A stretch of 41,008 bases of DNA from Candidatus Allobutyricicoccus pentlandensis. Its GTDB lineage: Bacteria; Bacillota; Clostridia; Oscillospirales; QAMX01. The notes under the pieces were generated by a model. The model did not search any database. It worked only from the letters and a program-made list of their open reading frames with translations, and was not told the origin of the DNA. Location: the NCBI GenBank assembly GCA_904398645.1, contig CAJFPH010000077.1:1-41008 (forward strand), written 5' to 3'. A program made the translations under genes and the position numbers. Below, piece by piece: positions 22,381 through 41,008 of this stretch (the stretch's first letter is position 1; each line of letters starts with the position of its first letter).

Positions 22381-22456
22381 AAAATTTAACATCCTGCACT
22401 TTCTTTGAATTCCGTATATTGATATAATGTTGGTATTCAGAATGATCGAGGTGTTT

Positions 22457-24517: not shown

Positions 24518-24591
24518 GCTATGGTACATGTGTAACCATGACAAGATCCGGGCGTGGTATATAAAAAGTGCCCGGTACGAGGAGGATTTGT

Positions 24592-25083: not shown

Positions 25084-25117
25084 TGGAAGGGCGCCGGTTC
25101 TGAAGGGAGAATTTCGT

Positions 25118-25462
25118 ATGAAAATTCGCGAGATCGTGCCGCTGCTTGAAGCAGAAGTGCTTTGTTGTGAGGAAGATTTGGATGTCGAGATCTATAATGC
25201 CTGCGGCAGCGATATGATGAGCGATGTGCTGGCATATGTGAAGGATCAGACGGCGCTTCTGACCGGCCTGGTCAATCCGCAGGTCGTGCGTACGGCTATG
25301 ATGATGGATATGCGCTGCATAATTTTTGTGCGCGGTAAGTGTCCGACTCCGGAGATGATCGCCCTGGCTGAAGAAGGCCGCATTGTCCTGCTTTCCACAA
25401 AGCTGCGCATGTATGAAGCATGCGGGAGACTGTACGTAAGTCACTTGGCTGGAGGGGTTTGA
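25118..25462 (+). CDS. DRTGG-domain protein (copy 1)
   Basis: Small protein with a GSDMMSDVL...LLTGLVNPQVVRTA core typical of hydrogenase-linked DRTGG proteins. Confidence 0.7.
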   Translation: MKIREIVPLLEAEVLCCEEDLDVEIYNACGSDMMSDVLAYVKDQTALLTGLVNPQVVRTAMMMDMRCIIFVRGKCPTPEMIALAEEGRIVLLSTKLRMYEACGRLYVSHLAGGV

Positions 25463-25466
25463 CGGT

Positions 25467-25892
25467 ATGGATGATGCCTTGCGATTCCATTTTGACATAG
25501 ACGGCGATAACTTTACTTCGGCGGGGGAGGCCTCTGTTGAGGTGAAAAAGAAGCTGCGGCAGCTGGGTTTTCCGCCGGATGTCATACGCCGTGTGTCGAT
25601 CGCCATGTATGAGGGCGAGATCAATATGGTGATTCATGCCCGTGGCGGAGATGCGGATGTGTTTGTATACCCGGATCATATTGTGATTATATTGGAGGAC
25701 CATGGCCCAGGAATTGAGGATATTGACCTTGCCATGCAGGAGGGATATTCCACCGCTCCGGACAGTGTTCGCGCGCTGGGATTTGGCGCGGGTATGGGCC
25801 TGCCAAATATGAAGAGGTATACCGAAGAAATGCACATCGAGTCAACGCTCGGTGTTGGAACGAAGATTACGATGGTAGTAAATGTTCAGTAG
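25467..25892 (+). CDS. HATPase_c protein, anti-sigma-factor-like Ser/Thr kinase fold (copy 1)
   Basis: N-box (YEGEINMVIHA), G1 (EDHGPGI) and G2 (GFGAGMGLPN) Bergerat-fold motifs. No HisKA domain. Confidence 0.75.
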   Translation: MDDALRFHFDIDGDNFTSAGEASVEVKKKLRQLGFPPDVIRRVSIAMYEGEINMVIHARGGDADVFVYPDHIVIILEDHGPGIEDIDLAMQEGYSTAPDSVRALGFGAGMGLPNMKRYTEEMHIESTLGVGTKITMVVNVQ

Positions 25893-25901
25893 GGGTGTTT
25901 C

Positions 25902-27200
25902 ATGTCTGAGTATAGGCACTCAGTATCGCTGGAAGAGGATAAGTGTAAGGGCTGCACAACGTGTCTCAAGCACTGTCCTACAGAGGCAATCCGGATTCGT
26001 AACGGCCATGCTGTTATCAATTCCGAAATCTGTATCGACTGCGGCGAGTGTATTCGCGTATGCCCGCATAAGGCCAAGAAAGCGATATTTGATAAGCTCG
26101 AGGATATTGGTCCGCGCTATAAATGGCGCATAGCACTGCCGCCGCCATCCCTTTATGGACAGTTTGAAAACCTTGACGACGTGGATTACGTCCTTCAGGG
26201 GCTGCTCGACTGTGGGTTTGACGAAGTATTTGAGGTTGCCCGTGCGGCGGAGATTGTGTCGGAATATACACGTAGGTATATGCATAAAAAGGACGTGTCA
26301 CGGCCTGTCATCAGTTCCGCGTGCCCTACGATTGTTCGTTTGATCCGTTTACGGTTTCCGTACCTGTGTGATAATGTCATGCCGATGCTGCCTCCTGTCG
26401 AGGTGGCAAGCCGTATGGCAAAGGCCGAGGCGCGAAAGAAACATCCGGAGCTTTGTGAGGACGAAATTTGCACGGTGTTTATTTCGCCGTGCCCGGCGAA
26501 GGCCAGTTACGTCAAAAACGGTATATCCAAAAACCGCAGCAGTATTGATTATGTTGTGTCAATGAGCGAAATGTACTTCAAACTCATTGGCGCAATGAAA
26601 GCAGTTGAAACGCCGAAAGTGGCCAGTGCGTCCGGTATGATCGGCATTAGCTGGGCAAGTTCCGGCGGAGAGGCGTCTGCGCTGTTTAACGACCGCTATC
26701 TGGCTGCCGACGGTATTGAAAATGCGATAAAGGTGCTCGACGAAATCGAGACTGGAAATTTCCCGTATTTGGAGTTCGTTGAGCTGAATGCTTGCCCGGG
26801 CGGTTGCGTGGGTGGCGCCGCGACTGTGGAGAATCCCTATATTGCCAAGGTGAGACTGCAGTCTTTGCGCAGATATCTTCCGATTTCACTGAACCGTCTG
26901 GAGAAAAGTGATGAGCCGGACGATTATGTACCGGCGGAGTTCATGCTTGGATCTCCGATTACATATGCGCCTGCAATGCGGCTGGATGCAAACCGCGGCA
27001 TTGCGATGCAGATGATGTCGGATATTGAAAAAATATATGAGTTACTCCCCGAGATTGATTGTGGTTCCTGCGGAGCGCCCACCTGCCGCGCATTTGCGGA
27101 GGACGTTGTGAAAGGGGAGTGCAAGGTAGAAGAATGCGTGGTGTACATGCGCGAACGAATGCGCGAATTCTGGTCAAAGCGGGGAGATGAACATCCATGA
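25902..27200 (+). CDS. HydS-like putative sensory [FeFe]-hydrogenase (group C-like), no PAS domain
   Basis: N-terminal 2x[4Fe-4S] ferredoxin motifs. Degenerate H-cluster motifs: SSACP for TSCCP, SPCPAK for MPCxxK, ACPGGCVGGAA for CxxGCxxGGGQP. C-terminal CGSCGAPTC...C Fe-S motif. Confidence 0.8.
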   Translation: MSEYRHSVSLEEDKCKGCTTCLKHCPTEAIRIRNGHAVINSEICIDCGECIRVCPHKAKKAIFDKLEDIGPRYKWRIALPPPSLYGQFENLDDVDYVLQGLLDCGFDEVFEVARAAEIVSEYTRRYMHKKDVSRPVISSACPTIVRLIRLRFPYLCDNVMPMLPPVEVASRMAKAEARKKHPELCEDEICTVFISPCPAKASYVKNGISKNRSSIDYVVSMSEMYFKLIGAMKAVETPKVASASGMIGISWASSGGEASALFNDRYLAADGIENAIKVLDEIETGNFPYLEFVELNACPGGCVGGAATVENPYIAKVRLQSLRRYLPISLNRLEKSDEPDDYVPAEFMLGSPITYAPAMRLDANRGIAMQMMSDIEKIYELLPEIDCGSCGAPTCRAFAEDVVKGECKVEECVVYMRERMREFWSKRGDEHP

Positions 27201-27523
27201 CGGTAGCTGAATTGGCTTCGGCGCTCAACCTGACGCCGGTTGCCCTTGGCGATCCACAGCGTGAAGTGACGGGCGGATATGCCGGCGACCTGCTTTCCTG
27301 GGTTATGGGCCGTGCTCAGGCCGGCGATGCGTGGGTGACGATTATGTCCAACGCAAACATTGTCGCGGTCGCGACGCTTGCGGATACGGCGCTGATCGTC
27401 CTGGCCGAAGGCGTAACGCTGGAGGAGGACGTTGCCGCGCTTGCCCAGGCAAAGGGCATCAATGTGTATACCAGCCCGCTCGATACCTTTACGCTCTGCG
27501 GAAAGATTGCCGCACTTTTATGA
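27197..27523 (+). CDS. DRTGG-domain protein (copy 2)
   Basis: GGYAGDLLSWVM...IMSNANIVAVA core. ATGA overlap with the HydS-like stop. Confidence 0.7.
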   Translation: MTVAELASALNLTPVALGDPQREVTGGYAGDLLSWVMGRAQAGDAWVTIMSNANIVAVATLADTALIVLAEGVTLEEDVAALAQAKGINVYTSPLDTFTLCGKIAALL

Positions 27524-28257
27524 CGCGCTATACGTATGATCTGCACATCCATTCCTGCCTGTCTCCCTGCGCGGATGATGATATGACGCCTGCAAATATC
27601 GCAGGTATGGCGTCTCTGGCCGGCGTGCAGTTGCTGGCGCTGACAGATCATAACAGTTGTGGAAACTGCGAGCCGTTCATGAAGGCGTGCCGTCAGTATG
27701 GAATCGTTCCGGTACCGGGGATGGAATTGACCACTGCGGAGGAAATTCATCTTGTCTGCCTGTTCCCGGATCTGGCGCCGGCGCTGGCTTTTGACCGCGA
27801 AGTAAAGGCGCACCTTTTGCCTGTGAAAAACAGGCCAGAGGTGTTTGGAAACCAGTTAATGGTAGATGAGAGGGACGAAATTGTCGGCGAGGAAGAACTT
27901 CTCCTTCTATCGGCAACCAGTTTACAACTTGAGGATGCCTATGCGCTTGCGTTGTATTACGGTGGCGCTGCGTATCCTGCGCATATTGACCGCAGTGCAA
28001 ACGGCATTATCGCCATCTTGGGCACTATGCCCCCGGAACCGGAGTTCCCGGCGGTGGAGCTGCGGGACGGCTCCAATCTGGAAACGTATACAGGAAGGTA
28101 TGGGCTTTCTGGAAAGCATATTCTCTGTTCGTCCGATTCGCACAATTTGTGGACGGTTGGGGATTGCGGAGCTTCCATTGAACTGGACGATGAGCCGTAC
28201 AGCAGCGCAAGAGTGCGCGGGGCGCTGATTGAGATGTTGAGGGGTGACGCGCCATGA
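27520..28257 (+). CDS. PHP-domain phosphoesterase
   Basis: YDLHIHSCLSPCADDDM...LTDHNS PHP metal-binding motifs. The real start is the ATG at 27520 (ATGA overlap), not the ORF-track start at 27331. Confidence 0.8.
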   Translation: MTRYTYDLHIHSCLSPCADDDMTPANIAGMASLAGVQLLALTDHNSCGNCEPFMKACRQYGIVPVPGMELTTAEEIHLVCLFPDLAPALAFDREVKAHLLPVKNRPEVFGNQLMVDERDEIVGEEELLLLSATSLQLEDAYALALYYGGAAYPAHIDRSANGIIAILGTMPPEPEFPAVELRDGSNLETYTGRYGLSGKHILCSSDSHNLWTVGDCGASIELDDEPYSSARVRGALIEMLRGDAP

Positions 28258-28784
28258 AGGAATTATCACTGAATATCCTTGATATCGCAAAGAACTCCGT
28301 GAAAGCGGAGGCTACTTGCATTGAAATTTCCATTGTAGAGGAGCAGGGGATCCGAACGCTGACAATTCGGGATGACGGGTGTGGTATGAGCCCGGAGTTC
28401 CTTGCGCAGGTGACGGACCCGTTTACAACGACGCGAACCACCCGCCCCGTCGGGATGGGGCTGCCGCTTTTAAAGCTGGCGGCGGAACAGGCTGACGGGA
28501 AGCTCACGATTACCTCACGCCAGGGAGAGGGTCACGGTACGACCGTACAGGCAACCTTTCGAATCGATCATCTCGACTGCGTACCCGTGGGCGATGTCGC
28601 CGGAACCATGGTGACGCTTATTCAGGGAAGTCCGAATATTGATTTCGAATTCCTATACCGGACGGATGCCGGAGAAAAACGCCTGTCAACGCGGGAGATG
28701 CGTGAAGTGCTGGGCGATGTGCCGCTCGACACGCCCGAGGTACTTGTGTGGGTGTCGGAGCTTTTGAATGAACCATTTAGTTAA
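28254..28784 (+). CDS. HATPase_c ATP-binding protein (copy 2)
   Basis: LNILDIAKNSVKA (N-box), RDDGCGM (G1), GMGLPLLK (G2). No HisKA or receiver domain. ATGA overlap with the PHP gene. Confidence 0.75.
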   Translation: MKELSLNILDIAKNSVKAEATCIEISIVEEQGIRTLTIRDDGCGMSPEFLAQVTDPFTTTRTTRPVGMGLPLLKLAAEQADGKLTITSRQGEGHGTTVQATFRIDHLDCVPVGDVAGTMVTLIQGSPNIDFEFLYRTDAGEKRLSTREMREVLGDVPLDTPEVLVWVSELLNEPFS

Positions 28785-28830
28785 GTAAACCATAAATTTG
28801 ATATAAACGAAAAAGGGAAGGGAAAGCACT

Positions 28831-29202
28831 ATGAAAACTTTAGCGGAACTCCAAGCAATCCGTGACAGTATGAAAGACAAAGTCTCCCTGCGCAACGGAA
28901 CTGCCGGCATGCGTGTGGTAGTTGGTATGGCTACCTGTGGTATTGCGGCGGGAGCCCGTCCTGTACTGAATGCGTTTGTGGAGGAAGTGAACAAGCAGGG
29001 CCTTACTGAGAAAGCTACCGTTACGCAGACCGGCTGTATCGGTATCTGTCAGTATGAGCCGGTCGTTGAAGTGTTTGAGGCTGGAAAGGATAAGGTCACT
29101 TATGTCAAGATGACCGCCGAGAAAGCCCGCCGCGTTGTTGAGGAGCACATCAAGGGCGGTAAAATCGTTCACGAGTATACGATTGGCGCGGCCCAGAACT
29201 AA
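28831..29202 (+). CDS. Thioredoxin-like (2Fe-2S) ferredoxin-domain protein
   Basis: VVGMATCGIAAGA...TGCIGICQYEP pattern. 123 aa. Strong RBS. Confidence 0.8.
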   Translation: MKTLAELQAIRDSMKDKVSLRNGTAGMRVVVGMATCGIAAGARPVLNAFVEEVNKQGLTEKATVTQTGCIGICQYEPVVEVFEAGKDKVTYVKMTAEKARRVVEEHIKGGKIVHEYTIGAAQN

Positions 29203-29220
29203 TTTGGAGGGGAAACCAAC

Positions 29221-31020
29221 ATGATACGTTCACATGTATTGATTTGCGGCGGTACCGGCTGTACCTCGTCGGGTAGCCAGAAGATCCGGGAGCACCTGGA
29301 AAACGAACTTGCGGCCAAGGGCCTTGCTGATGAAATCAAGGTAGTGCAGACCGGCTGTTTTGGCCTGTGCGCACTTGGTCCCATTATGATTGTCTATCCG
29401 GAGGGAACGTTCTATAGCCGCGTTACCAATGAGGATGTTTCCGAGATTGTAGAGGAGCACCTGTTAAAGGGCCGTCCTGTCGAACGCTTAATTTATAATG
29501 ACGGTGCGGAGAATGCGGCCAATGAGCACGGTGTCTCGTCGCTGAACGATACAAACTTTTATAAGTCTCAGAAGCGGGTTGCGCTGCGTAACTGCGGTGT
29601 AATTAATCCCGAGGTCATTGATGAGTACATAGCTCGCGACGGTTATATGGCACTTGCCAAGGTACTCACGGAGATGACGCCGGATGACGTCATCAATACA
29701 CTGCTTGCCTCCGGTTTGCGCGGCCGCGGCGGCGCGGGTTTCCCAACCGGTATGAAGTGGAAGTTTGCCAAGGCGTATGATAACGATCAGAAGTACGTCT
29801 GCTGCAACGCGGATGAGGGCGACCCCGGCGCATTCATGGATCGTTCCGTTCTTGAGGGCGACCCGCATGCGGTTTTGGAGGCTATGGCCATCGCCGGCTA
29901 TACCATTGGCGCAAATCAGGGTTATATTTATGTCCGTGCGGAGTATCCGATTGCTGTTCAGCGCCTGACCATTGCCATTGCACAGGCACGTGAATATGGC
30001 CTGCTCGGCAAAAATATTTTGGATACCGGGTTTGATTTTGATATTGATCTCCGTCTCGGCGCCGGTGCGTTCGTCTGTGGCGAAGAAACCGCGCTGATGA
30101 CTTCTATAGAAGGTAACCGCGGTGAACCGCGCCCACGTCCGCCGTTCCCGGCAGAAAAGGGCCTTTTCCAGAAACCTTCGATTTTGAACAATGTAGAAAC
30201 TTATGCGAATATTCCGCAGATTATCTTGAAAGGCGCCGACTGGTTTGCTTCCATGGGTACGGAAAAGTCCAAGGGTACCAAAGTCTTCGCGCTCGGCGGT
30301 AAGATCCATAATACGGGCCTCGTTGAGGTCCCGATGGGTACCACGCTCCGTCAGATCGTTGAGGACATCGGCGGCGGCATACCGAACGGCAAAAAGTTTA
30401 AGGCTGCGCAGACCGGCGGACCTTCCGGCGGATGTATCCCTGCCGAGCACCTGGATGTCCCGATTGACTACGATAATCTGACGGCCATCGGCTCTATGAT
30501 GGGATCCGGCGGCCTGATCGTCCTTGACGAGGACGACTGTATGGTTGATATTGCAAAGTTTTTCCTCGAATTCACCGTCGAGGAGTCTTGCGGTAAGTGC
30601 GCGCCTTGCCGTATCGGCACCAAGCGCCTATATGAAATTCTCGATAAAATTACGAGAGGCAACGGCACGTTAGAAGATCTGGACAAGCTCGAGGAGCTCT
30701 GCTATCACATCAAGGCCAACTCCCTCTGCGGACTTGGACAGACCGCTCCGAACCCCATACTCTCCACGCTGCGTTACTTCCGCGACGAGTATATTGCACA
30801 CGTCGTTGAGAAGCGCTGCCCGGCGGGCGTCTGTAAGCACCTGCTGCGCTACACAATCGATCCCGATAAGTGCCGTGGCTGTACGGCCTGCGCCAGAGTA
30901 TGTCCGGCGGAAGCCATTACCGGCCGTGTCAAGGAAGCCCACGTCATCGATCCTGAGAAGTGCCTGAAGTGTGGCGCCTGTATGGAGAAGTGTAAGTTCG
31001 GCGCGATATCGAAAAAGTAA
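29221..31020 (+). CDS. hydB: NuoF-like flavoprotein subunit of electron-bifurcating-type [FeFe]-hydrogenase
   Basis: N-terminal 2Fe-2S domain, GRGGAGFPTGMKW FMN/NADH site, ESCGKCAPCR N3-type cluster and two C-terminal CxxCxxCxxxCP ferredoxin motifs. Confidence 0.9.
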   Translation: MIRSHVLICGGTGCTSSGSQKIREHLENELAAKGLADEIKVVQTGCFGLCALGPIMIVYPEGTFYSRVTNEDVSEIVEEHLLKGRPVERLIYNDGAENAANEHGVSSLNDTNFYKSQKRVALRNCGVINPEVIDEYIARDGYMALAKVLTEMTPDDVINTLLASGLRGRGGAGFPTGMKWKFAKAYDNDQKYVCCNADEGDPGAFMDRSVLEGDPHAVLEAMAIAGYTIGANQGYIYVRAEYPIAVQRLTIAIAQAREYGLLGKNILDTGFDFDIDLRLGAGAFVCGEETALMTSIEGNRGEPRPRPPFPAEKGLFQKPSILNNVETYANIPQIILKGADWFASMGTEKSKGTKVFALGGKIHNTGLVEVPMGTTLRQIVEDIGGGIPNGKKFKAAQTGGPSGGCIPAEHLDVPIDYDNLTAIGSMMGSGGLIVLDEDDCMVDIAKFFLEFTVEESCGKCAPCRIGTKRLYEILDKITRGNGTLEDLDKLEELCYHIKANSLCGLGQTAPNPILSTLRYFRDEYIAHVVEKRCPAGVCKHLLRYTIDPDKCRGCTACARVCPAEAITGRVKEAHVIDPEKCLKCGACMEKCKFGAISKK

Positions 31021-31035
31021 GGAGGGACGTACACA

Positions 31036-32778
31036 ATGGATACCGTAAAAGTTAAAATTAACGGCATAGAAGTCGACGCCCCGGTAGGCTCGACCATCTT
31101 GGAAGCCGCACACATGGCCGGCATTCGGATTCCGACGCTGTGCTACTTGAAGGGAATTAACGCGATTGGCGCCTGCCGTATGTGCCTGGTTGAGGTAAAA
31201 GGCGCGCGTGCGTTGGCCGCCGCCTGCGTTTATCCTGTGAATAACGGCATGGAGGTTTTTACAAATACTCCTGCGCTTCGCAAGGCGAGAAAGACCACCC
31301 TGGAGCTGATTCTCTCGAATCACCGTATGGATTGCCTTTCCTGTCCGCGCAACGGAAACTGCGAGCTGGCAACTCTCGCAAAAGAGTATGGCGTAGATCA
31401 GTATAAATATGGCGATGGACGTGAAATCCCGGTAGAACTTGACACTTCCTCGCCGCACCTGATCCGCGACAATTCCAAATGTATCCTCTGCCGCCGCTGT
31501 GAGGCCGTTTGCCGTTCGAATCAGCTTGTGTCTGTAATCGGTGCAAATGAACGCGGCTTCCGGACGCATATTGGCAGCCCGTTTGAGATGGACCTCGCCG
31601 AAACACCCTGTATCAACTGCGGCCAGTGCATTACGGTTTGCCCGACCGGCGCCTTGCAGCCAAAGGACGACACCGGGAAAGTGTGGGATGCGATCGCCGA
31701 CCCGTCAAAACATGTCGTCGTTGGACCTGCTCCTTCTGTCCGTGCCCAGCTTGGCGAATGCTTTGGCATGCCGATCGGCACGAATGTCGAAGGAAAGATG
31801 GTTGCCGCGCTTCGCCGCCTTGGATTTGACAAGGTGTTTGACGTGGACACGGCGGCTGATATGACCATCATGGAAGAGGGAACAGAACTTCTTGAGCGCA
31901 TCCAAAACGGTGGAACGCTCCCGCTGATTACATCGTGTTCTCCCGGTTGGGTGAAATTCTGCGAGACATATTATCCGGAGTTTATTCCGAATATTTCTTC
32001 CTGTAAATCTCCGCAGCAGATGTACGGCGCGTTAATGAAAACGTATTATGCTGAAAAGACCGGCCTTGATCCAAAGGATATTTTTGTCGTTTCCGTCATG
32101 CCGTGCACAGCAAAGAAGTTTGAGATTGGCCGTGAGGATCAAAGCGCTTCGGGTTATCCGGACATTGATGTTTCCATCACGACGGTGGAACTTGCTAACA
32201 TGATTAAGCGTGCGGGCATTCAGTTCGACGCCTTGCCTGACGAGGAGTTCGATCCGGTATTCGGTATCGGCACCGGTGCTGGTCACATCTTTGGGGCAAC
32301 CGGCGGCGTTATGGAGGCTGCATTGCGTACTGTGTATGAAGTGGTAACTGGCAATACTTCGCCAAATGTGGACTATACAGAGGTTCGCGGCACGGAGGAT
32401 ATCAAGGAAGCTACCTATGATATCGGTGGGATGAAGGTCAATGTCGCAGTTACCTCCGGTCTTGCCAATGCTGCAAAACTTCTTGACAGCGTAAAGTCCG
32501 GTGAGAAGAATTATCACTTTATTGAAGTCATGTGCTGCCCAGGCGGCTGTGTCAATGGCGGTGGTCAGCCCGATCAGCCCGGCTACGTCCGTAACTTCCA
32601 GGATCTCCGTGCCTTGCGTGCGAAGGCCCTGTATCAGGAGGACGAAGCTTCTACCTTCCGTAAGAGTCATGAAAATCCGGTCGTCAAGGAGATCTATAGT
32701 ACGTACCTTGAGAAACCCGGCAGCCACAAGGCGCATGAAATCCTCCATACTTCCTATGTGGCAAGAAAGAAATATTAA
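31036..32778 (+). CDS. hydA: [FeFe]-hydrogenase catalytic subunit (group A3-like, NADH-dependent)
   Basis: N-terminal 2Fe-2S plus His-ligated and 2x[4Fe-4S] domains. H-cluster motifs MPCTAKKFE and EVMCCPGGCVNGGGQP. The L1 motif reads TSCSPGW. Confidence 0.9.
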   Translation: MDTVKVKINGIEVDAPVGSTILEAAHMAGIRIPTLCYLKGINAIGACRMCLVEVKGARALAAACVYPVNNGMEVFTNTPALRKARKTTLELILSNHRMDCLSCPRNGNCELATLAKEYGVDQYKYGDGREIPVELDTSSPHLIRDNSKCILCRRCEAVCRSNQLVSVIGANERGFRTHIGSPFEMDLAETPCINCGQCITVCPTGALQPKDDTGKVWDAIADPSKHVVVGPAPSVRAQLGECFGMPIGTNVEGKMVAALRRLGFDKVFDVDTAADMTIMEEGTELLERIQNGGTLPLITSCSPGWVKFCETYYPEFIPNISSCKSPQQMYGALMKTYYAEKTGLDPKDIFVVSVMPCTAKKFEIGREDQSASGYPDIDVSITTVELANMIKRAGIQFDALPDEEFDPVFGIGTGAGHIFGATGGVMEAALRTVYEVVTGNTSPNVDYTEVRGTEDIKEATYDIGGMKVNVAVTSGLANAAKLLDSVKSGEKNYHFIEVMCCPGGCVNGGGQPDQPGYVRNFQDLRALRAKALYQEDEASTFRKSHENPVVKEIYSTYLEKPGSHKAHEILHTSYVARKKY

Positions 32779-32942: not shown

Positions 32943-35900
32943 TTATTTTGTTTCTGAATCAGCTTCATTTTTGCGGCGCCCTTTTAAAAGGAGGACGGTA
33001 AGCGCGGCAGAGGATAGTGCCAAAACACCTGCCCACAGAATCCACTCGCTGGAATCTCCGGTTTTTGGAATATCTGCAAGCGGCACATCTTCATCGAAAA
33101 TGTTAATCAACCCGTTGCCGTCTGCAAGCGGCACATTTTCGTCTACGATATCGGTCAGGCCGTTATCTTCTTCGGAGGAATTTCCCTCATTGGCAGCGCC
33201 GGCTAAATCGCCGCCGTCTGTAAGAGGCACATCCTCATCCGGAATGTCTTCTATATCCTGGTCCAGATCGTTTCCGGGCTCCGGTTCCGCTTCAGAGTCC
33301 TGACCGTCAGGCTGTTCGGGGTCCGGATTTGTTGAAGGAATCGTGTCGGGATCGCTCGGATCTGTGTCCGGAATGTTGTTTACCGTTACATAATAGACGC
33401 GTATGACGTTGCTGCCCGGGTCAGAGGTGATGGTCAACGGGAAATTCGAAGCGCCGGTATAGTGGGAATTGAGGCCATACTTATGTGTGAAGCTGTCGAT
33501 GACATCTCCGAAAGTTGCCGTTCCATATTCCGTGGCGCCGTCGTCACGTACGCCGTCATAGTAGTACTCAACGCGATAGCCAAACTCGCCCTTCACATAG
33601 TAAACACGGATGACATTATTGGCCGGGTCCGTATCTACGGTCAGCGGCGCTGTGTCATGATCAAATATATATCCATCCGCTGCTTTATCCGGATAAGTGC
33701 TGATAGAATCGTGGAACTTTGCGGTCCCCGTCACAGTGGCACGGTCATCTCGAATGCCATCGTAGTAATATTCCACGGTGTAGGTATAGTCCGAACGGAT
33801 ATAATAAACGCGGATGATATTTTCATCTGTGTTGCTGGTAATGTTTAGCGGGAGACCGGTAACGGTTTCAAGCTCGTAGCCGGTGCGTGTTTTATCCGTA
33901 TAGGATGAGATGGTATCGTGGAAAGTGGCAGTGAATGAATCCGTTTTGGATGTGTCGATCACACCGTCGTAGTAATATTCGACCTTGTAACCAAAGGAAT
34001 CTTTGACATAGTAGATTCTGATAACATTATTGTCTGCGTTTGCAGTTACCGTCATGGGAAGATTTTCAGTCTTGTCAAGTTTGTAACCATCAATCTTCTT
34101 GTCGGGGTAAGTCGAGACCTGTGTGCCGAACGTTTCTGCGGCGCCGATGACCGTCTTGGTATCATCCTTTACGCCGTCATAGTAATACTCAACGGTGTAT
34201 GCGTACTGTCCCTTGACATAATAGATGCTAATAACATTATTCTCTTCGTTCGAGGATATGGTCAGCGGGAGATTTTTTTCACCATTTTCAGCAAGCACGT
34301 ACCCATCGCGAAGCTTTGCAGAGTAGGTGGAGATCTTCTCGCCGAAGGTTGCCGTTCCGGTAACGGTTGCCGCGTCGTCGCGCACGCCATCATAGTAATA
34401 CTCAACTTTGTAACCAAAGGAATCCTTCACGTAATAGACGCTGAGCACATTCTGCGATACATCTGTGCCAATGACCAGTGGCGCGGTATCACGGTCAAAC
34501 TTATAGCCGTCGATCTTCTGATCCGGATAAGTAGCAATGCTTGCGCCATATGCGGCGGACAACGTCTGTGTTTTGCTGTTGTCAATCACACCGTCGTAAT
34601 AGTAGTGAATGGTATAGTCGTAGCTCTTATAAGAGGTTTGACCGTATACGTTAACGTTGTCGGCGGGCATGACATCAGGGATTGTCGCACTTGTCGTATA
34701 GCTGGAGTCGGAATACCAGCCGGAAAACGTCAAATATGTTTCCGAAGGCGCATAGGTATATGCCGTAACGCTTTGCCCTGCATAATAGGAATCTGTGTGA
34801 ACGACTACACCATCGACGTAATACGTAATGGCGTACTGCGTCTCAGGCGTATATGTCCAGATGCCCGTAAAGACAACGCCGGATTCTGACATGACGGCGG
34901 AGGTCTGGTTCCAGGAAGTAAGCCTCCAGGTGCCGACCGTCACACCGTTTTCCGTGACAGTATAAGTTGTATCAATCGCCGGAGCCTTGTCGGAGAGAAA
35001 AACGGTTGCGCCTGCAAGGTACGTATTGGTATCCGAAACCTGGAATTCGCCGCTCTGTGTGGAGATCGCCGCAGGCAGAGAGCCGGAGGCTGCGGTATAT
35101 TGATACGCAACGCTGTAAGTTGGAAGTTTATTGTAGTAAAATTTCAAAACAAGGCTGCCATCGCCCGCAATGGTGCCGGACGCCATGTTGTTTGCATGAT
35201 CTTCGTCAAATACATAGCCGTTGTATGTTTTTGGACTTGCCGTTGCTGTGGAACCTGTTGTCCCGGACTGTGTATTTGACTCATGAAGCGCATAGGAGCC
35301 TGAACCGGACGCTGTCTCCAGATAGTGCGCTACGGTATATTTGGTGTCGCTGTTCGGGGTCCACTGCGCGTAAAGGGTTGTGGTTTCAGAAATATAGAAG
35401 GATGAATTAACGCTGAAGCTGGTTCCGTCACCGGTTGCCGTTGAATTCCACCCCGTGAATGTGTAACCAGGACGAGAGAGCGTACCGGGCCCCTCAACGG
35501 TTACCGCAGCGCCTTCGACGTACTGTCTCCCGATTGGCGGCTCACCGTTGTAATCCGTGCAGTTGGGGTGATAATACAGATTGATTTTTGCCTTATCCAG
35601 AACAACACCGTCAATGTGCCATCCGTCGGTGTTGTCATACTTAATGACATACCATTCGATATACTGAGTCGCCGGGTCATAGGCCGAATATACCTTTTTA
35701 ATTTGCGCAGAAGTCGGAACGCTATTTAAATTTTGGCTGACGGCAGCGTTTCCCGAAGTAAAAACGCCGCTCTTAATTACATTTTGAATGGTAATACCTG
35801 CGGTATATTGGCTGGAAGGGTATTTTCCAGGTTCATATGGAATTTGACCATCCAGACGAATATAAAAGGTACCGGTTACATTTTGAGGCGCCTGAGAATA

Positions 35901-36926
35901 GGTGAGAATGGAAGCCGGGGTCACGGTTACATAGTAGGTCGTAGTATGTAGCGTGCCGTCCTTCTCATAAGAGTGCGTAATAACGGTTTCGCCTTCCTTC
36001 ACACCTGTCACAGTACCTGCAAGTACAGTGGCAATCGTTTCATCCGAGGAGGTCCAGCTTTCATTTGTGAGATTGCTTGTATCGGAAAACTGTACGGCAA
36101 GTTCGGCGCTCTCGCCAACGACTACTTCGACAGTCTCCTCATGGACGACAGGTTCAGGCGTATTTTTGCTCCATTTTGCATAGAACGTTGCGCTGCCGGA
36201 GAGCGCGGAGAGGTCGGCAGGCGTGGTAAATCCGGCGTCTGCATACCAGCCGTCAAACACGTACCCTTCATAAGAAATTTCCGGAAAGTCGGACGGCGCC
36301 GGGAACTGATCTGGTAACGCCGGAACGACGTAAACCTGGATATCCTCGCTGCCGTTATTCGAGATAAAAGTTACGGTGTAATAGGAATATGTGGTTTCTT
36401 TCCAGGTATAGCAGGTATCATAATGCGCTGCCTTTCCGCACTGGGGCTCTGCTGAACGATAACATGTCTCCGTGTGCGTATGACCGGTGCCGCTGCATGC
36501 GTCCGTATGCGTGTGGTTCTCCTCCATGGCACAGGTGAGATAACCATAGAAGCCGGTGTCTCCAGCCTCCACCAGCACGCAAGCGCCTGTGTGCTTACCG
36601 TTGTCGTCATAGTGATCCGGGTTTGTGTCTGGCGTGCATACCGTGTAACAGCCGCTATCATGCGTATGATTTTCAGGAATCGCACATGGGGATGATTCCT
36701 GACCACACAGCGGTGCTTCGCTGATATAGCACTCCGCTGCGTGTACATGGTGCGTTTCGTCTGTGCAGATAAGCTCCTGTGTCCAGACATGATAAAGCCC
36801 ATCCTCGGCAAATGTATTTTCATACGAGGCTTCGCCGGTGGCCAAAGTCTTCCACGACGCGGCGTATGTAATTACCATGGAGAGAACAAGGATAAGGGAG
36901 AGCGTCTTCTTAAATGTTTTAACCAT
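32943..36926 (-). CDS. Large sortase-anchored cell-surface adhesin (InlB-B/Listeria-Bacteroides repeats, Big_2-like domain, MucBP-like repeats)
   Basis: Signal peptide MVKTFKKTLSLILVLSMVITYAAS. Three GY-x-F-x-GW...YA-x-W repeats. Big_2-like WTSSDETIATV...GVKEGETVIT. Six ~70-aa YxVEYYYDG repeats. C-terminal IPKTG, then a hydrophobic helix and a KGRRK tail. Confidence 0.9.
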   Translation of the reverse strand: MVKTFKKTLSLILVLSMVITYAASWKTLATGEASYENTFAEDGLYHVWTQELICTDETHHVHAAECYISEAPLCGQESSPCAIPENHTHDSGCYTVCTPDTNPDHYDDNGKHTGACVLVEAGDTGFYGYLTCAMEENHTHTDACSGTGHTHTETCYRSAEPQCGKAAHYDTCYTWKETTYSYYTVTFISNNGSEDIQVYVVPALPDQFPAPSDFPEISYEGYVFDGWYADAGFTTPADLSALSGSATFYAKWSKNTPEPVVHEETVEVVVGESAELAVQFSDTSNLTNESWTSSDETIATVLAGTVTGVKEGETVITHSYEKDGTLHTTTYYVTVTPASILTYSQAPQNVTGTFYIRLDGQIPYEPGKYPSSQYTAGITIQNVIKSGVFTSGNAAVSQNLNSVPTSAQIKKVYSAYDPATQYIEWYVIKYDNTDGWHIDGVVLDKAKINLYYHPNCTDYNGEPPIGRQYVEGAAVTVEGPGTLSRPGYTFTGWNSTATGDGTSFSVNSSFYISETTTLYAQWTPNSDTKYTVAHYLETASGSGSYALHESNTQSGTTGSTATASPKTYNGYVFDEDHANNMASGTIAGDGSLVLKFYYNKLPTYSVAYQYTAASGSLPAAISTQSGEFQVSDTNTYLAGATVFLSDKAPAIDTTYTVTENGVTVGTWRLTSWNQTSAVMSESGVVFTGIWTYTPETQYAITYYVDGVVVHTDSYYAGQSVTAYTYAPSETYLTFSGWYSDSSYTTSATIPDVMPADNVNVYGQTSYKSYDYTIHYYYDGVIDNSKTQTLSAAYGASIATYPDQKIDGYKFDRDTAPLVIGTDVSQNVLSVYYVKDSFGYKVEYYYDGVRDDAATVTGTATFGEKISTYSAKLRDGYVLAENGEKNLPLTISSNEENNVISIYYVKGQYAYTVEYYYDGVKDDTKTVIGAAETFGTQVSTYPDKKIDGYKLDKTENLPMTVTANADNNVIRIYYVKDSFGYKVEYYYDGVIDTSKTDSFTATFHDTISSYTDKTRTGYELETVTGLPLNITSNTDENIIRVYYIRSDYTYTVEYYYDGIRDDRATVTGTAKFHDSISTYPDKAADGYIFDHDTAPLTVDTDPANNVIRVYYVKGEFGYRVEYYYDGVRDDGATEYGTATFGDVIDSFTHKYGLNSHYTGASNFPLTITSDPGSNVIRVYYVTVNNIPDTDPSDPDTIPSTNPDPEQPDGQDSEAEPEPGNDLDQDIEDIPDEDVPLTDGGDLAGAANEGNSSEEDNGLTDIVDENVPLADGNGLINIFDEDVPLADIPKTGDSSEWILWAGVLALSSAALTVLLLKGRRKNEADSETK
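33375..34622 (-). repeat. Six tandem ~207-nt (~69-aa) coding repeats, MucBP-like
   Basis: Each unit reads Y-x-[VI]-[EH]-YYYDG[VI]-x-D...[FY]G/FHD-x-I-[SA]-[TS]-[YF]...GY...PL...NV[IL][RS][VI]YY[VI][KRT]. Confidence 0.85.
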
Positions 36927-37748: not shown

Positions 37749-37817
37749 CAGCCTAAAGAAAGCGGAGAGAGCGGAAAAAACTTTTGGTATCTTGACGATG
37801 ACAGAGCAAAAAGGATT

Positions 37818-37826
37818 TGTTATAAT
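37818..37826 (+). promoter_or_regulatory. Extended -10 promoter element for the atp operon
   Basis: TGtTATAAT. A TTGACG lies further upstream but at a non-canonical 23-nt spacing. It gives a ~270-nt leader before atpB. Confidence 0.5.
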
Positions 37827-38101: not shown

Positions 38102-38941
38102 ATGAGTGCGAAGAAAAGGAAGATTGGCATCGCCATTTGGGCTTGCGTTGTACTCGTTTTGCTGGTTGTCAGTATCCTGACCGGAAATGCCGGTGGGGAG
38201 CAGGAGTCAATTAAAGAAGTAATGCGCGACGCCGTTCTTCATGAAACGGGGAAAATTGAATTTTTGGGGATACTGGAGGTAAATCCGGCCGTAATCTCCG
38301 GATTTCTGGTAACAGGTGTTCTGCTCTGCTTTGCGGCGTGCGTCCGCCTGTTTGCAATTCCAAGATTTCGATATGTTCCCGGCAAGTTTCAATTGCTGAT
38401 TGAGCAAGTCGTTAACCTGTTTGACGGGTTGGCAAAGTCAAACAGCCCCCATCGAAATGGGTTCCTTGGTGCGTATATCTTTGGTGCAGGCGTCTATATC
38501 TTCGTTGGAACTTTATTTGAACTGTTTGGTTTTCAGGCTGTTACAACGGAGGGCGTATCAATTGCGCTTCCTGCTCCGCTTTCTGATATTAACGCTGCCA
38601 TTTGCCTTGGGTGCTTGTCTTATCTGGTGATTCTCTCAGGAGGCATAGCAGGAAACGGTTTCCGCGGCGTTGGAAAGACACTAAAAGATTTCTCTCTGCC
38701 GATATCAATGAGCTTCCGTCTGTTTGGCGCGTTGCTCAGCGGCCTTTTGGTGACGGAGCTGGTCTATTATTACATTAGCTTGAGCTTTGTGCTGCCTGTA
38801 GTCGTTGCGGTGCTGTTTACGTTGCTGCATGCTCTCATTCAAACCTATGTTCTAACTATGCTTACGGCCCTGTTCTATGGAGAGGTGTCGGAGCCGCAAC
38901 AGAAAAAGAAAAAGTTAAAAAAACAGGCGGCAAGCCTGTGA
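38102..38941 (+). CDS. atpB: F-type ATP synthase subunit a
   Basis: Conserved SMSFRLFGALLSG helix with the essential Arg, in a polytopic membrane protein. AGGAG lies 6 nt before the ATG at 38102. The track start at 38081 is a TTG. Confidence 0.9.
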   Translation: MSAKKRKIGIAIWACVVLVLLVVSILTGNAGGEQESIKEVMRDAVLHETGKIEFLGILEVNPAVISGFLVTGVLLCFAACVRLFAIPRFRYVPGKFQLLIEQVVNLFDGLAKSNSPHRNGFLGAYIFGAGVYIFVGTLFELFGFQAVTTEGVSIALPAPLSDINAAICLGCLSYLVILSGGIAGNGFRGVGKTLKDFSLPISMSFRLFGALLSGLLVTELVYYYISLSFVLPVVVAVLFTLLHALIQTYVLTMLTALFYGEVSEPQQKKKKLKKQAASL

Positions 38942-38960: not shown

Positions 38961-39350
38961 ATGAAAATGAACAGAAAAAGAAAGAGCGTATTGGCGTTCC
39001 TGTTGCTGACGGTGGTTTTGGCGGCGCTTTGCGCAGTACCGGCTTTTGCTGCGGGCGAGCCTGGTGACGGAACTGTTGGAACGGATGCGGCAAGTGAGAC
39101 TGCGGCGGAGGCCTCCACCGCGGATTCTACCGGCGACAAGGCGTTGGCGGCGGCTGTTGCAGTTGGCTTGGCGGCTGCGGGCGGCGCAATTGGTATGGGT
39201 ATTGCGATTGCCAAATCTACGGAAGGCATTTCCCGTCAGCCGGAGGCAGAGGGCCGTATTCGTACGGCCATGATGCTGGGCCTGGTGTTCATTGAGACCG
39301 CGATTATTTATGCGTTGATTGTGGCAATTCTGATTATATTTGTTCTGTAA
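38961..39350 (+). CDS. atpE: F-type ATP synthase subunit c with a 60-aa N-terminal extension
   Basis: The C-terminal 69 aa form a canonical c hairpin (GxGxAxA helix, RQPE loop, FIETAIIY carboxylate helix). Residues 1-30 look like a Sec signal peptide. The start may be the second ATG at 38967. Confidence 0.85.
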   Translation: MKMNRKRKSVLAFLLLTVVLAALCAVPAFAAGEPGDGTVGTDAASETAAEASTADSTGDKALAAAVAVGLAAAGGAIGMGIAIAKSTEGISRQPEAEGRIRTAMMLGLVFIETAIIYALIVAILIIFVL

Positions 39351-39356
39351 AGGTGT

Positions 39357-39857
39357 GTGAAGAGCGTGGGTGTTCCGTTGAATATCGATTGGCAGCAGAT
39401 CCTACTGCATCTTTTCAATTTTGCAATACTTGCAGGCGGGCTGTATCTGTTGCTTTATAAGCCGGTAAAAAACTTCATGGAAAAGCGGACTGCGTATTAT
39501 CAGGGCCTTGACGCTACTGCCAATGAAAAACTGGCGCATGCCGAAGCAATGGAAGCGGATTATCAGAAGCAGTTAGACCAGGCAGAGGCAGAGATCAGCC
39601 AGAGAAAGGCAAAAGCGGCGAAGGAATCGGAGCTTGCTGCGGCAGCGCAGATGAAAAATGCGAAAGAACAGAGCGAAAAGCTGATTCTTGCGGCGCAGCA
39701 GGCGGCGCAGATGGAGAGAAAGAAGATACTGGGTGAAGCAAGAGAAGAAATTGCACAGATCGCCGTTGAGGCGACACAGAAATTATTGAAGGCGGACGCC
39801 TCTAAAATATATAATGAGTTTTTAGACGCCGCATCAAAGGAGCAGGGGCATGAGTGA
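39357..39857 (+). CDS. atpF: F-type ATP synthase subunit b
   Basis: A single N-terminal TM helix, then a long charged Ala/Glu/Lys/Gln-rich coiled coil. Operon position fits. Confidence 0.85.
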
Positions 39858-41008
39858 GTTGCAGGCGGTTCTGAAAGGGTTGGTTCCGCCTGATTCGTCC
39901 CAGGAGGATCGAATCAGGGCCTTTTTGGAACAGAAATATGGCGCGCCGGTTGTACTTGTATGGGAAGTGGATCCCACAATAGCAAGTGGGTTCCGCCTGG
40001 AAATTGGCTCCGACGTATATGATTGGAGCCTGCGGGGCCGTTTTGCGCAGTTAAGGGATGTGCTGGAACAGCTTCCGTACATGACTGGCGGCATTGTCCC
40101 ACTTTTAAGGGATACCGTAAAAAATTGGACGCCCCGTGCCCTGGCGGAAGAAATTGGTACCGTTTTGACTGTCGGAGACGGTATTGCGACTGTTGGCGGC
40201 CTGGAACATGCTGCTTATGGAGAAATTTTAATCTTTTCGTCAGGCATCCGTGGTATGGTTCAGGACTTGAGGCGTGAAGAACTTGGTTGCATCCTCTTTG
40301 GTGATGACCAGGAAATTTTGGAGGGAAGCGCTGTCAGAAGAACCGGCATGATGGCTGGTATCCCGGTTGGGGATGGCTTTATTGGCCGTGTAATTAATGC
40401 GCTTGGCGCGCCGATTGATGGGAAAGGACCGATTAAGGAAGAAGATTACCGGCCGGTTGAAGCGCCTGCGCCTAACATTATTGACCGTCAGCCGGTGAAT
40501 AAGCCGATGGAGACGGGCCTTCTGGCGATCGATTCCATGTTTCCAATAGGCCGTGGACAGCGTGAGCTGATTATAGGCGACCGTCAGACAGGAAAGACGG
40601 CAATTGCGCTGGATACGATTTTGAATCAGAAAGATAAAGACGTAATCTGCATTTATGTGGCAATCGGGCAGAAAGCCAGCTCAGTTGCACAACTTGTTGA
40701 AACCTTGAGACGGCATGGCGCGATGGAATACACCATTGTTGTCAATGCATCTGCCAGCGATACGGCCCCTCTGCAGTATATTGCACCGTATGCAGGCTGC
40801 GCCATGGGCGAGTATTTTATGAATATGGGCAGAGACGTTCTTATCGTATATGACGATTTGTCCAAACACGCGATTGCGTACCGGGCGCTCAGCCTTTTGC
40901 TGGAGCGTTCGCCGGGCCGTGAAGCGTATCCGGGTGATGTCTTTTATTTGCACTCTCGTCTTTTGGAACGCGCAGCGCATTTGTCTGACGAAAAGGGCGG
41001 CGGTAGTA
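39850..41008 (+). CDS. atpA: ATP synthase alpha subunit with an in-frame N-terminal delta-C-terminal-domain-like extension (3' end outside the window)
   Basis: I translated this by hand; it is absent from the ORF track because it has no stop in the window. ATG at 39850, after an AAGGAG RBS. The first 77 codons resemble the delta/OSCP C-terminus ([39 protein letters not shown]). The frame then runs without a stop into alpha (GDRQTGKT Walker [33 protein letters not shown]). Confidence 0.85.

What the first reader, a model, noticed from the sequence alone, without database searches (positions are those of the whole stretch)
39850..41008. ATP synthase delta reduced to its C-terminal ~55 residues and read in frame into alpha
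No normal ~180-aa atpH lies between atpF and atpA. A well-placed AAGGAG-ATG at 39850, overlapping the atpF stop, opens a frame whose first 77 codons match only the C-terminal segment of delta/OSCP (consensus-like ...V-x-L-x-x-x-VDP-x-I-x-GF-x-L-x-IG-x-x-x-x-D-x-S-L-RGR...L). I translated codon by codon and found no stop before or after the ATG at 40081, where a full-length alpha would begin ([16 protein letters not shown]...). No Shine-Dalgarno sequence precedes 40081. Canonically, the delta N-terminal domain grips an alpha N-terminal helix and its C-terminal part contacts subunit b. Here the N-terminal domain is missing and the link to alpha would be covalent. That raises a stoichiometry problem: three alpha copies for one stator stalk. 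It could be resolved by dual initiation (39850 and 40081) or by proteolysis. I do not recognise this as a described architecture. Mycobacterial b-delta fusions are the nearest known analogy.
Basis: partly seen in the sequence, partly recalled or inferred. Interest (0 to 1): 0.72.

Follow-up and report, generated by a model that had tools for sequence, protein, structure and literature searches.

The report
Natural delta-alpha fused ATP synthase subunit
In this gut Clostridia genome the ATP synthase 'delta' connector has lost its front half and its back half is fused to every alpha subunit, the same design that engineers showed in 2025 lets the enzyme carry up to three stator stalks and make ATP from a weaker membrane voltage.

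Summary
Window 39850-41008(+) is one open frame. Codons 3-71 match only the C-terminal third of the delta/OSCP profile (positions 102-171 of 172), and a complete alpha subunit follows with no stop. There is no separate atpH between atpF and atpA.

It is not an artefact:
- Three independent assemblies of the same species give an identical junction.
- A 79%-identical relative keeps the frame, with dN/dS 0.13 for the delta part.
- All 120 best full-length homologues (549-603 aa) are fused alphas; 112 carry the recorded OSCP hit.
- 461 clusters at 50% identity match the 95-residue N-terminal query.

The architecture is also not undescribed. Ueno et al. [quoted passage not shown] A model of the window protein superposes on their structure, 9JC1 (TM 0.72-0.77).

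This is therefore a new, large clostridial member of a recently recognised kind. Whether it carries several stalks in vivo is untested.

The parts
37798..37826 (+). Promoter-like site upstream of the atp operon (ATGACA-17-TATAAT, with TG)
   Evidence: Consensus scan, 11 of 12 matches. This is weak evidence: the number of sites found is about what the shuffles give.
38102..38941 (+). atpB, F0 subunit a (279 aa). Divergent: about 65 extra N-terminal residues, a 12-aa insertion and a 13-aa deletion compared with unfused relatives
   Evidence: Pfam ATP-synt_A, 63 bits. The best NCBIfam match is 61.6 bits, below every curated cut-off. Alignment A4. The start is taken from the 279-aa gene called in L010. 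The mechanical ORF starts at TTG 38081.
38961..39350 (+). atpE, F0 subunit c precursor (129 aa). Signal-peptide-like residues 1-30 (38961-39050), an acidic spacer, then the canonical hairpin (39144-39335)
   Evidence: Pfam ATP-synt_C at residues 62-125. The extension is present in every fused-type locus and absent from the unfused relatives.
39357..39857 (+). atpF, subunit b (166 aa from GTG 39357, or 163 aa from GTG 39366). Free-standing, of normal length, with a conserved C-terminal Y-x-x-F-L-D-x-A motif
   Evidence: Pfam ATP-synt_B at residues 15-144, alignment A7, and a 163-aa gene called in L010.
39837..39842 (+). Shine-Dalgarno AAGGAG for the fused gene, 7 nt before the ATG. The start overlaps the atpF stop by 8 nt, which suggests translational coupling
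   Evidence: Read directly from the sequence.
39850..40080 (+). [quoted passage not shown]
   Evidence: Pfam OSCP, residues 3-71 to profile 102-171 of 172, E 4e-11. The AF2 model has pLDDT 77-86 and a beta-alpha-beta-beta-beta-alpha fold. dN/dS is 0.13 against L002.
40069..40092 (+). Short linker that includes Met78 (ATG 40081). Its length is fixed across the family
   Evidence: The distance from YDWS to the alpha N-helix is 25 residues in 85 homologues and 26 in 19. A Met is present in only 4 of 104. The model has pLDDT below 50 at residues 78-80.
40081..41008 (+). atpA, a full alpha subunit beginning with its N-terminal helix (40093-40122), then the beta-barrel crown (40147-40347) and the nucleotide-binding domain (40516-40998). 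It is cut off by the window end
   Evidence: TIGR00962 aligns from residue 82. The full-length same-species protein P0314 scores 747 bits against a cut-off of 484.

Best explanation
Shown: this is a genuine, conserved gene fusion. One 580-aa polypeptide consists of the delta C-terminal domain (the part that binds the C-terminus of the b2 stalk), a fixed-length linker, and a complete alpha subunit. It sits in an otherwise complete F-type operon, a-c-b-(delta'alpha)-gamma-beta-epsilon, that has no free delta. Inferred: every one of the three alphas in the F1 head therefore carries its own b2 docking module. Nothing occupies the threefold axis, which is the place the delta N-terminal domain fills in ordinary enzymes. 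The enzyme can then bind more than one b2 stalk, up to three, each bringing its own a-subunit. That multiplies the ions carried per rotor turn (N = Nc x Na) and raises the H+/ATP ratio. ATP synthesis, or reversible coupling, would become possible at the low membrane potentials of a fermentative, hydrogen-producing anaerobe. By its c-subunit site the coupling ion is predicted to be H+.
For: The frame is open and the domain assignment holds. Three independent assemblies of the same species have an identical junction. L002 and four other genomes carry 580-597-aa fused ORFs followed by gamma, beta and epsilon. All 120 best full-length homologues are N-terminally extended alphas of 549-603 aa, 112 of them with the recorded architecture OSCP+ab_N+ab+ab_C. 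The 95-residue N-terminal query finds 461 clusters at 50% identity. Selection is purifying, with dN/dS 0.13 for delta' and 0.02 for alpha. The linker length is invariant and there is no conserved internal Met. The L002 fused protein aligns colinearly with the engineered fusion chain 9jc1_I, residues 27-562 to 27-566. An AF2 model of window residues 1-168 superposes on 9jc1 chains I, J and K over 163-164 columns (TM 0.72-0.77, rmsd 2.8-3.4 A), whereas ordinary alphas match only 65-111 columns. Ueno et al. showed that the engineered fusion assembles up to three stalks and a-subunits, reaches H+/ATP 5.8, and that the delta N-domain limits the stalk number to one. They predicted multi-stalk enzymes for natural fusions. 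A natural F1Fo with two stalks and two a-subunits exists in Chloroflexus. The C-terminal motif of b is conserved. Subunits a and c are both remodelled in fused-type operons only. The atp operon lies in a hydrogenase-rich neighbourhood.
Against: No stoichiometry or structure exists for any natural fusion enzyme. In the engineered enzyme, three-stalk particles were rare in cryo-EM. The operon has single a and b genes, and nothing in the sequence proves they are made in threefold excess. The c-ring size is unknown, as is whether three of these divergent a-subunits fit around it. The rest of the genome could not be searched for a free delta N-domain. The link between the a and c changes and multiple stalks is a correlation in 7 fused (6 for subunit a, since L006 reads as frameshifted there) against 2 unfused operon types.
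Confidence: 0.55

Rival explanations
1. Single-stalk enzyme. The fusion only replaces the anchoring job of the lost delta N-domain with a covalent bond. One delta' binds the single b2-a stalk and the other two stay empty, so the bioenergetics are ordinary.
For: The operon has one a gene and one b gene. The engineered enzyme gave mixed populations in which three-stalk particles were rare. Nothing in the sequence fixes the stoichiometry.
Against: In the engineered case, free delta' sites did recruit extra b2 and a, and H+/ATP rose to 5.8. A purely neutral tether does not explain why subunits a and c are remodelled together with the fusion. It also does not explain why the design persists in hundreds of lineages.
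Confidence: 0.3
2. A mixed alpha population. Internal initiation at Met78, or proteolysis in the linker, yields one delta'-alpha and two plain alphas per F1, restoring a 1:3 ratio.
For: An ATG is present at 40081 in the window and in L002. The linker is predicted to be flexible, with pLDDT below 50 at residues 78-80.
Against: A Met occurs in the linker in only 4 of 104 homologues. No SD precedes 40081. The linker length is strictly fixed, which fits a structural constraint better than a cleavage site. The engineered fusion works without any such processing. Proteolysis cannot be excluded from sequence alone.
Confidence: 0.07
3. Artefact or pseudogene: an assembly deletion or frameshift removed the delta N-domain and the stop codon.
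For: The window ends inside atpA. Many database homologues are contig-end fragments, and one relative (L001) comes from an indel-rich assembly.
Against: The junction is identical in three independent assemblies from different samples. Full-length fused ORFs exist in many genomes. Selection on delta' is purifying.
Confidence: 0.01

Closest known systems
Engineered Bacillus PS3 deltaΔN-alpha fused FoF1 (Ueno et al., Nat Commun 2025, PMC12229609; PDB 9JC1)
   Same: The same construct logic: delta residues from about 105 to the C-terminus are joined by a short linker to the alpha N-terminus, with no delta N-domain. The chain length is also the same, 580 aa. The sequences are colinear across the junction and the model superposes at TM 0.72-0.77.
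   Different: That fusion is man-made in a Bacillus enzyme with ordinary a and c subunits. The one here is natural, about 30% identical in the aligned 164 columns, and comes with a remodelled a subunit and a c subunit carrying a signal-peptide-like extension. Its stalk number has not been measured.
Natural delta-alpha fusions noted in Acidaminococcus fermentans (UniProt D2RLW6), G4Q3K6 and A0A1I2C5T3 (Ueno et al. 2025, Discussion and Supplementary Fig. 9)
   Same: A natural atp operon in which delta lacks its N-domain and is fused to alpha. A multi-stalk enzyme was predicted for it.
   Different: The named species is Acidaminococcus fermentans (which I recall to be a Negativicute). The window belongs to a clade whose named members are Clostridia: Oscillospiraceae, Lawsonibacter, Christensenellaceae and some MAGs labelled Lachnospiraceae or Roseburia. 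Common ancestry of the two fusions was not tested, because those sequences could not be retrieved here.
[quoted passage not shown]
   Same: It is a natural F-type enzyme with more than one stalk and more than one a-subunit. Its delta C-domain is the best PDB sequence match to delta' (E 1.5e-6).
   Different: There delta is a free 157-aa subunit whose shortened four-helix N-domain dimerises on top of F1. Here there is no N-domain at all and the link to alpha is covalent.
Mycobacterial b-delta fusion (atpFH; e.g. PDB 7JG5 chain d)
   Same: A gene fusion involving delta in the peripheral stalk. Its delta C-domain aligns with delta' (E 4.5e-4).
   Different: In mycobacteria a full-length delta, including the N-domain, is fused to b, and there is still one stalk. 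Here b is free-standing, and only the delta C-domain survives, on alpha.
N-ATPase (alternate F1F0) subunit b, TIGR03321
   Same: delta' weakly matches the C-terminal 65 positions of this 246-position b model (E 0.003). That hints at another case of an N-domain-less delta C-domain fused to a stator partner.
   Different: The fusion partner is b, not alpha. The window's alpha fails the N-ATPase alpha cut-off (610 against 750.5 bits), and the gene order is the ordinary F-type one.

Membership tests
Natural deltaΔN-alpha fusion F-ATP synthase (as defined by Ueno et al. 2025) | No free-standing atpH between atpF and atpA | tested here: met
   atpF ends at 39857 and the fused ORF starts at 39850. 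The same holds in L010-L012.
Natural deltaΔN-alpha fusion F-ATP synthase (as defined by Ueno et al. 2025) | Alpha is extended at its N-terminus by the delta C-terminal domain only | tested here: met
   OSCP profile positions 102-171 of 172 match residues 3-71, and alpha (TIGR00962) starts at residue 82.
Natural deltaΔN-alpha fusion F-ATP synthase (as defined by Ueno et al. 2025) | Delta N-terminal domain absent from the organism | tested here: inconclusive
   No OSCP hit in any other window ORF scanned (the 1327-aa ORF was not scanned here but L010 records only Flg_new for it) or within 10 kb either side in L010-L012. The whole genome was not available.
Natural deltaΔN-alpha fusion F-ATP synthase (as defined by Ueno et al. 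2025) | Colinear with, and structurally like, the engineered fusion subunit (9JC1) | tested here: met
   phmmer aligns 27-562 to 27-566 in one stretch. Foldseek gives TM 0.72-0.77 and rmsd 2.8-3.4 A over 163-164 columns.
Natural deltaΔN-alpha fusion F-ATP synthase (as defined by Ueno et al. 2025) | More than one peripheral stalk and a-subunit per complex | not testable with these tools
   This needs the native enzyme (cryo-EM, quantitative MS). It has been shown only for the engineered enzyme.
Natural deltaΔN-alpha fusion F-ATP synthase (as defined by Ueno et al. 2025) | Shared ancestry with the Acidaminococcus fusions | not tested
   D2RLW6 and the other UniProt entries could not be retrieved with the tools available.
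F0F1 ATP synthase subunit alpha (TIGR00962 equivalog) | Score at or above the curated cut-off of 484.45 bits | tested here: met
   The full-length same-species protein P0314 scores 747.1 bits. The truncated window copy scores 483.5 bits.
ATP synthase delta/OSCP (PF00213; TIGR01145) | A full-length delta with an N-terminal helical bundle and a C-terminal domain | tested here: not met
   The Pfam gathering score is passed (43.7 against 22.3), but only by the last 70 of 172 positions. TIGR01145 scores 33.1 against a cut-off of 57.5.
N-ATPase (alternate F1F0) | Alpha passes TIGR03324 (750.5 bits) and the operon order is atpDCQRBEFAG | tested here: not met
   The score is 609.8 bits. The order here is a-c-b-(delta'alpha)-gamma-beta-epsilon.
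Mycobacterial b-delta fusion | Delta, including its N-domain, fused to the C-terminus of a b subunit | tested here: not met
   b is 163-166 aa with its own stop codon. No N-domain is present.
Chloroflexus-type two-stalk F1Fo | A free delta with a shortened four-helix N-domain that dimerises | tested here: not met
   delta' starts at the C-domain boundary and there is no free delta gene.

The most novel reading that the evidence does not exclude
A large group of gut and rumen Clostridia (Oscillospiraceae, Christensenellaceae and relatives) naturally run a three-stalk, three-a-subunit F-type ATP synthase. Its ion/ATP ratio would be up to three times the canonical value, about 10 for a c10 ring. 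The specially remodelled a subunit and the signal-peptide-bearing c subunit would have co-evolved with the fusion to make this assembly possible. Such an enzyme would let these fermenters make ATP at roughly 50-60 mV. No natural enzyme of this kind has been isolated.
Probability: 0.4. Interest if true: 0.75.

Novelty: new member of a known kind. Interest (0 to 1): 0.5.

Why it matters
The H+/ATP ratio sets the minimum membrane potential at which a cell can make ATP. Until 2025 it was thought to vary only with c-ring size. The engineered deltaΔN-alpha enzyme and the two-stalk Chloroflexus enzyme showed that the number of stalks and a-subunits is a second variable. This window shows that the design behind the engineered three-stalk enzyme is a conserved and widespread natural state in abundant anaerobic Clostridia, not a curiosity of one Acidaminococcus genome. 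It also comes with concerted changes in subunits a and c. That supplies many natural candidates for testing whether multi-stalk F-ATP synthases exist in nature. It also bears on how strict fermenters with hydrogenases balance their energy budget at low pmf.

Tried and rejected
1. Frameshift or misassembly: rejected, because three independent assemblies give the same junction and the frame is conserved at 79% nucleotide identity.
2. Dual initiation at Met78: rejected as a conserved mechanism.
3. N-ATPase membership: rejected on score and gene order.
4. Mycobacterial b-delta as the nearest analogue: superseded by 9JC1 and Acidaminococcus.
5. The first homologue search, with a 130-aa query, returned only fragments of 228 aa or less. 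That briefly suggested a split alpha. It turned out to reflect contig-end fragments and one indel-rich assembly, and a full-length query found the 549-603-aa proteins.
6. The full-length AF2 model was poor (mean pLDDT 62, shallow alignment) and was used only for the delta' part. A 168-aa model with a more diverse alignment was better, at pLDDT 77.
7. A cluster look-up for taxon names of 10 divergent family members returned no names.
8. Literature searches for any other description of a delta-alpha fusion, or of a triple-C-domain delta, found nothing beyond Ueno et al. and Zhang et al..
9. I recall a precedent for a signal peptide on subunit c (Aquifex aeolicus; Zhang et al., FEBS J 2013). I could not find it in the held library, so it rests on memory.
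10. A separate atpH elsewhere in the genome could not be checked beyond the 41-kb window and 10 kb downstream.

Full report
**1. The observation**

Translating window 39850-41007(+) gives 386 codons with no stop, and the frame runs off the end of the window. An AAGGAG at 39837-39842 sits 7 nt before the ATG at 39850. That ATG overlaps the atpF stop codon (TGA 39855-57) by 8 nt.

- Pfam places OSCP on residues 3-71, matching only profile positions 102-171 of 172 (E 4e-11; 43.7 bits against a gathering score of 22.3).
- ATP-synt_ab_N follows at residues 100-166 and ATP-synt_ab at residues 223-383.
- NCBIfam's atpA equivalog aligns from residue 82 at model position 7, so the alpha N-terminus is complete.
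- Upstream lie atpB, atpE and a normal, free-standing atpF.
- No other window ORF that I scanned matches OSCP; the 1327-aa ORF was not scanned here, and L010 records only Flg_new for it.

**2. It is real and conserved**

The same species was assembled independently in at least three other samples (L010, L011, L012). Over window 39850-41008 these are 99.5-100% identical, and the junction is identical. In them the ORF is 580 aa, and the operon reads a(279)-c(127)-b(163)-delta'alpha(580)-gamma(299)-beta(466)-epsilon(139).

A relative at 79% nucleotide identity (L002) keeps the frame. Against it, dN/dS is 0.13 for the delta' part and 0.02 for alpha.

Four more genome loci carry fused ORFs of 581-597 aa (L003, L004, L006, L007); L005 has the same kind of ORF, but there the mechanical ORF starts upstream inside atpF.

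A search with the full-length L002 protein returned 120 best hits of 549-603 aa, all N-terminally extended alphas; 112 have the precomputed architecture OSCP + ab_N + ab + ab_C, and the other 8 lack only the recorded OSCP hit. A search of 1.84 billion representative proteins with the first 95 residues found 461 clusters at 50% identity.

Source names, where present, are:
- Oscillospiraceae
- 'Clostridia bacterium'
- Lawsonibacter
- Christensenellales / Christensenellaceae
- MAGs labelled Roseburia and Lachnospiraceae

. Databases simply call these proteins 'subunit alpha', or 'subunit delta, partial'.

**3. Anatomy of the junction**

Among the 104 full-length homologues in which my motif search found the landmarks, the distance from the invariant Y-D-W-S motif of delta' to the alpha N-terminal helix is 25 residues in 85 and 26 in 19. 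A methionine occurs in the linker in only 4, and those belong to the window's own small clade.

The alpha N-terminal helix (I-P-L-L-x-E-T-V-x-x-W-T-P) is strongly conserved. So is the C-terminal Y-x-x-F-L-D-x-A motif of subunit b.

A normal 168-aa delta from Eubacterium / Lachnospiraceae MAGs (P0302 / P0363) carries the same YDWSLRGR motif in its C-domain. It sits in an ordinary operon, a(199-217)-c(72)-b(161)-delta(168)-alpha(502). That is a plausible picture of the ancestral state.

**4. What is known**

Ueno et al. (Nat Commun 2025; PMC12229609) reasoned that the delta N-domain sits on the threefold axis of alpha3beta3 and so limits the enzyme to one stalk. They deleted it (residues 2-104) and fused delta 105-178 to the N-terminus of alpha in Bacillus PS3. 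The resulting enzyme had up to three b2 stalks, each with an a-subunit, and an H+/ATP ratio of 5.8.

In their Discussion and Supplementary Fig. 9 they note that the Acidaminococcus fermentans operon has exactly this fusion (D2RLW6), as do G4Q3K6 and A0A1I2C5T3. They propose that natural multi-stalk enzymes exist.

Their fused chain is 9jc1_I, also 580 aa. It aligns with the natural L002 protein in one stretch, 27-562 to 27-566.

An AF2 model of window residues 1-168 (pLDDT 77) has the fold E4-10, H16-30, E34-40, E48-52, E55-58, H61-73, linker, H82-91, then the beta-barrel. It superposes on 9jc1 chains I, J and K over 163-164 columns with TM 0.72-0.77 and rmsd 2.8-3.4 A. Ordinary alphas match only 65-111 columns.

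Zhang et al. (PNAS 2025; PMC12002316) solved a natural Chloroflexus enzyme with two stalks and two a-subunits. It is held together by a dimer of shortened delta N-domains. Its delta is the best PDB sequence match to delta'.

I found no other description of delta-alpha fusions.

**5. Most likely mechanism**

Shown: the fusion puts one b2-docking module on each of the three alphas, and nothing is encoded in the operon to occupy the axis.

Inferred, by analogy with the engineered enzyme: more than one b2-a stalk assembles. Ions per turn then become Nc x Na, and ATP synthesis becomes feasible at low pmf. With ΔGp of about 50-60 kJ/mol and a c10 ring (an assumption), three a-subunits would lower the required pmf from about 155-185 mV to about 52-62 mV.

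The genomic setting fits a low-pmf anaerobe. A multi-gene [FeFe]-hydrogenase cluster lies about 5 kb upstream of the atp operon (24568-32778), separated from it by the 1327-aa surface-protein ORF on the other strand.

The c-subunit ion site reads E65-T66-A67-Y70 with Met at position 32, in Ilyobacter tartaricus numbering. That alignment is my own, made against a sequence recalled from memory. The site lacks Gln32 and the polar residue at position 67 that are required in Na+ enzymes (PMC2359735), so H+ is predicted.

I put the multi-stalk reading at about 0.55. The main rival is a single-stalk enzyme in which the covalent bond merely replaces the lost N-domain anchor, at about 0.3. Mixed alpha populations by internal initiation or proteolysis get about 0.07, and an artefact about 0.01.

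**6. What is new here**

The fused design turns out to be a large clostridial family, not only the species named in the 2025 paper. In every fused-type operon examined, two other stator or rotor parts are also altered compared with unfused relatives.

- **Subunit a.** It gains about 65 N-terminal residues: a TM helix followed by a conserved E-V-M-R-D-A-V-L-H-E-T segment. It also gains a 12-residue insertion, loses 13 residues before the Arg helix, and reads RLFGA instead of RLFGN. It is so divergent that it fails every NCBIfam a-subunit cut-off.
- **Subunit c.** It carries a signal-peptide-like leader (..AVPAFA|AGE..) and an acidic spacer.

Whether these changes are adaptations to having several a-subunits around the ring is speculation. 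It rests on 7 fused (6 for subunit a, since L006 reads as frameshifted there) against 2 unfused operon types.

**7. Verdict**

The claim of novelty, the proposed resolution by dual initiation, and the choice of nearest analogue are not supported. The finding is a new and widespread member of a kind first recognised in 2024-2025, and its defining functional property, the stalk number, has never been measured in any natural enzyme. I score interest at 0.5.

Noticed in passing
L008:6001-7095 (also L009; proteins P0263, P0249, P0289): Delta subunits of 349-364 aa with a normal N-terminal domain followed by THREE tandem C-terminal domains (Pfam OSCP, 3 stretches). They occur in Clostridium argentinense / C. 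faecium and other Clostridium sp., in an otherwise ordinary operon: an unannotated 120-aa gene where atpI would sit, then a(226)-c(84)-b(159)-delta(364)-alpha(504). This may be a second natural route to several b2 docking sites. I found no description of it in the literature. P0311 (two C-domains, no N-domain) and P0255 (two C-domains) are related oddities.
   Followed up: partly
window 38961-39140 (and c genes of L001-L007, L010): The F0 c subunit has a signal-peptide-like leader (MKMNRKRKSVLAFLLLTVVLAALCAVPAFA|AGE) and an acidic low-complexity spacer of about 30 residues before the canonical hairpin. This is conserved in all fused-type operons and absent from the unfused relatives (c = 72 or 84 aa). 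No atpI gene is seen. From memory, Aquifex aeolicus subunit c has a cleaved signal peptide; I could not verify that in the library.
   Followed up: partly
window 38102-38941: Subunit a of the fused-type operons is highly divergent. It is 27% identical to the unfused clostridial a subunits and scores below all NCBIfam a-subunit cut-offs. It has an extra N-terminal TM helix plus a conserved EVMRDAVLHET segment, a 12-aa insertion, a 13-aa deletion, and RLFGA in place of RLFGN.
   Followed up: partly
L001:7635-8009 and L001:9116-9490: One fused-type relative has two c-subunit genes, one before and one after atpB. Both carry the signal-peptide-like extension. That assembly is rich in indels: alpha and beta are each split into pieces.
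   Followed up: no
window 24568-32778: A multi-gene [FeFe]-hydrogenase cluster. It holds NuoE-like and NuoF-like subunits and a 580-aa HydA, looking like an electron-bifurcating HydABC. It also holds a second hydrogenase-like protein and genes with DRTGG, histidine-kinase-like ATPase and PHP domains, which looks like a sensory or regulatory module. It lies about 5 kb upstream of the atp operon, and the arrangement is conserved in L002 and L010-L012.
   Followed up: partly
window 32943-36926 (-): A 1327-aa secreted protein with many Flg_new-type repeats and a C-terminal membrane anchor, lying between the hydrogenase genes and the atp operon.
   Followed up: no
window 22427-23344 (+): A strong match to streptomycin adenylyltransferase (PF04439, E 1e-112). 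This is a likely aminoglycoside resistance gene.
   Followed up: no
window 41008 (end) and proteins P0001-P0047: The window, and presumably the contig, breaks inside the highly conserved core of atpA. Most database relatives found with a short query are likewise fragments of 120-228 aa; the two checked are one frameshifted gene in an indel-rich assembly and one fragment labelled 'partial'. Such truncation would help explain why the fusion is often annotated 'subunit delta, partial'.
   Followed up: partly
window 39850-40080 against NCBIfam TIGR03321: delta' weakly matches the last 65 positions of the N-ATPase b-subunit model (E 0.003). This suggests that N-ATPase b subunits end in a delta C-domain-like module.
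   Followed up: no
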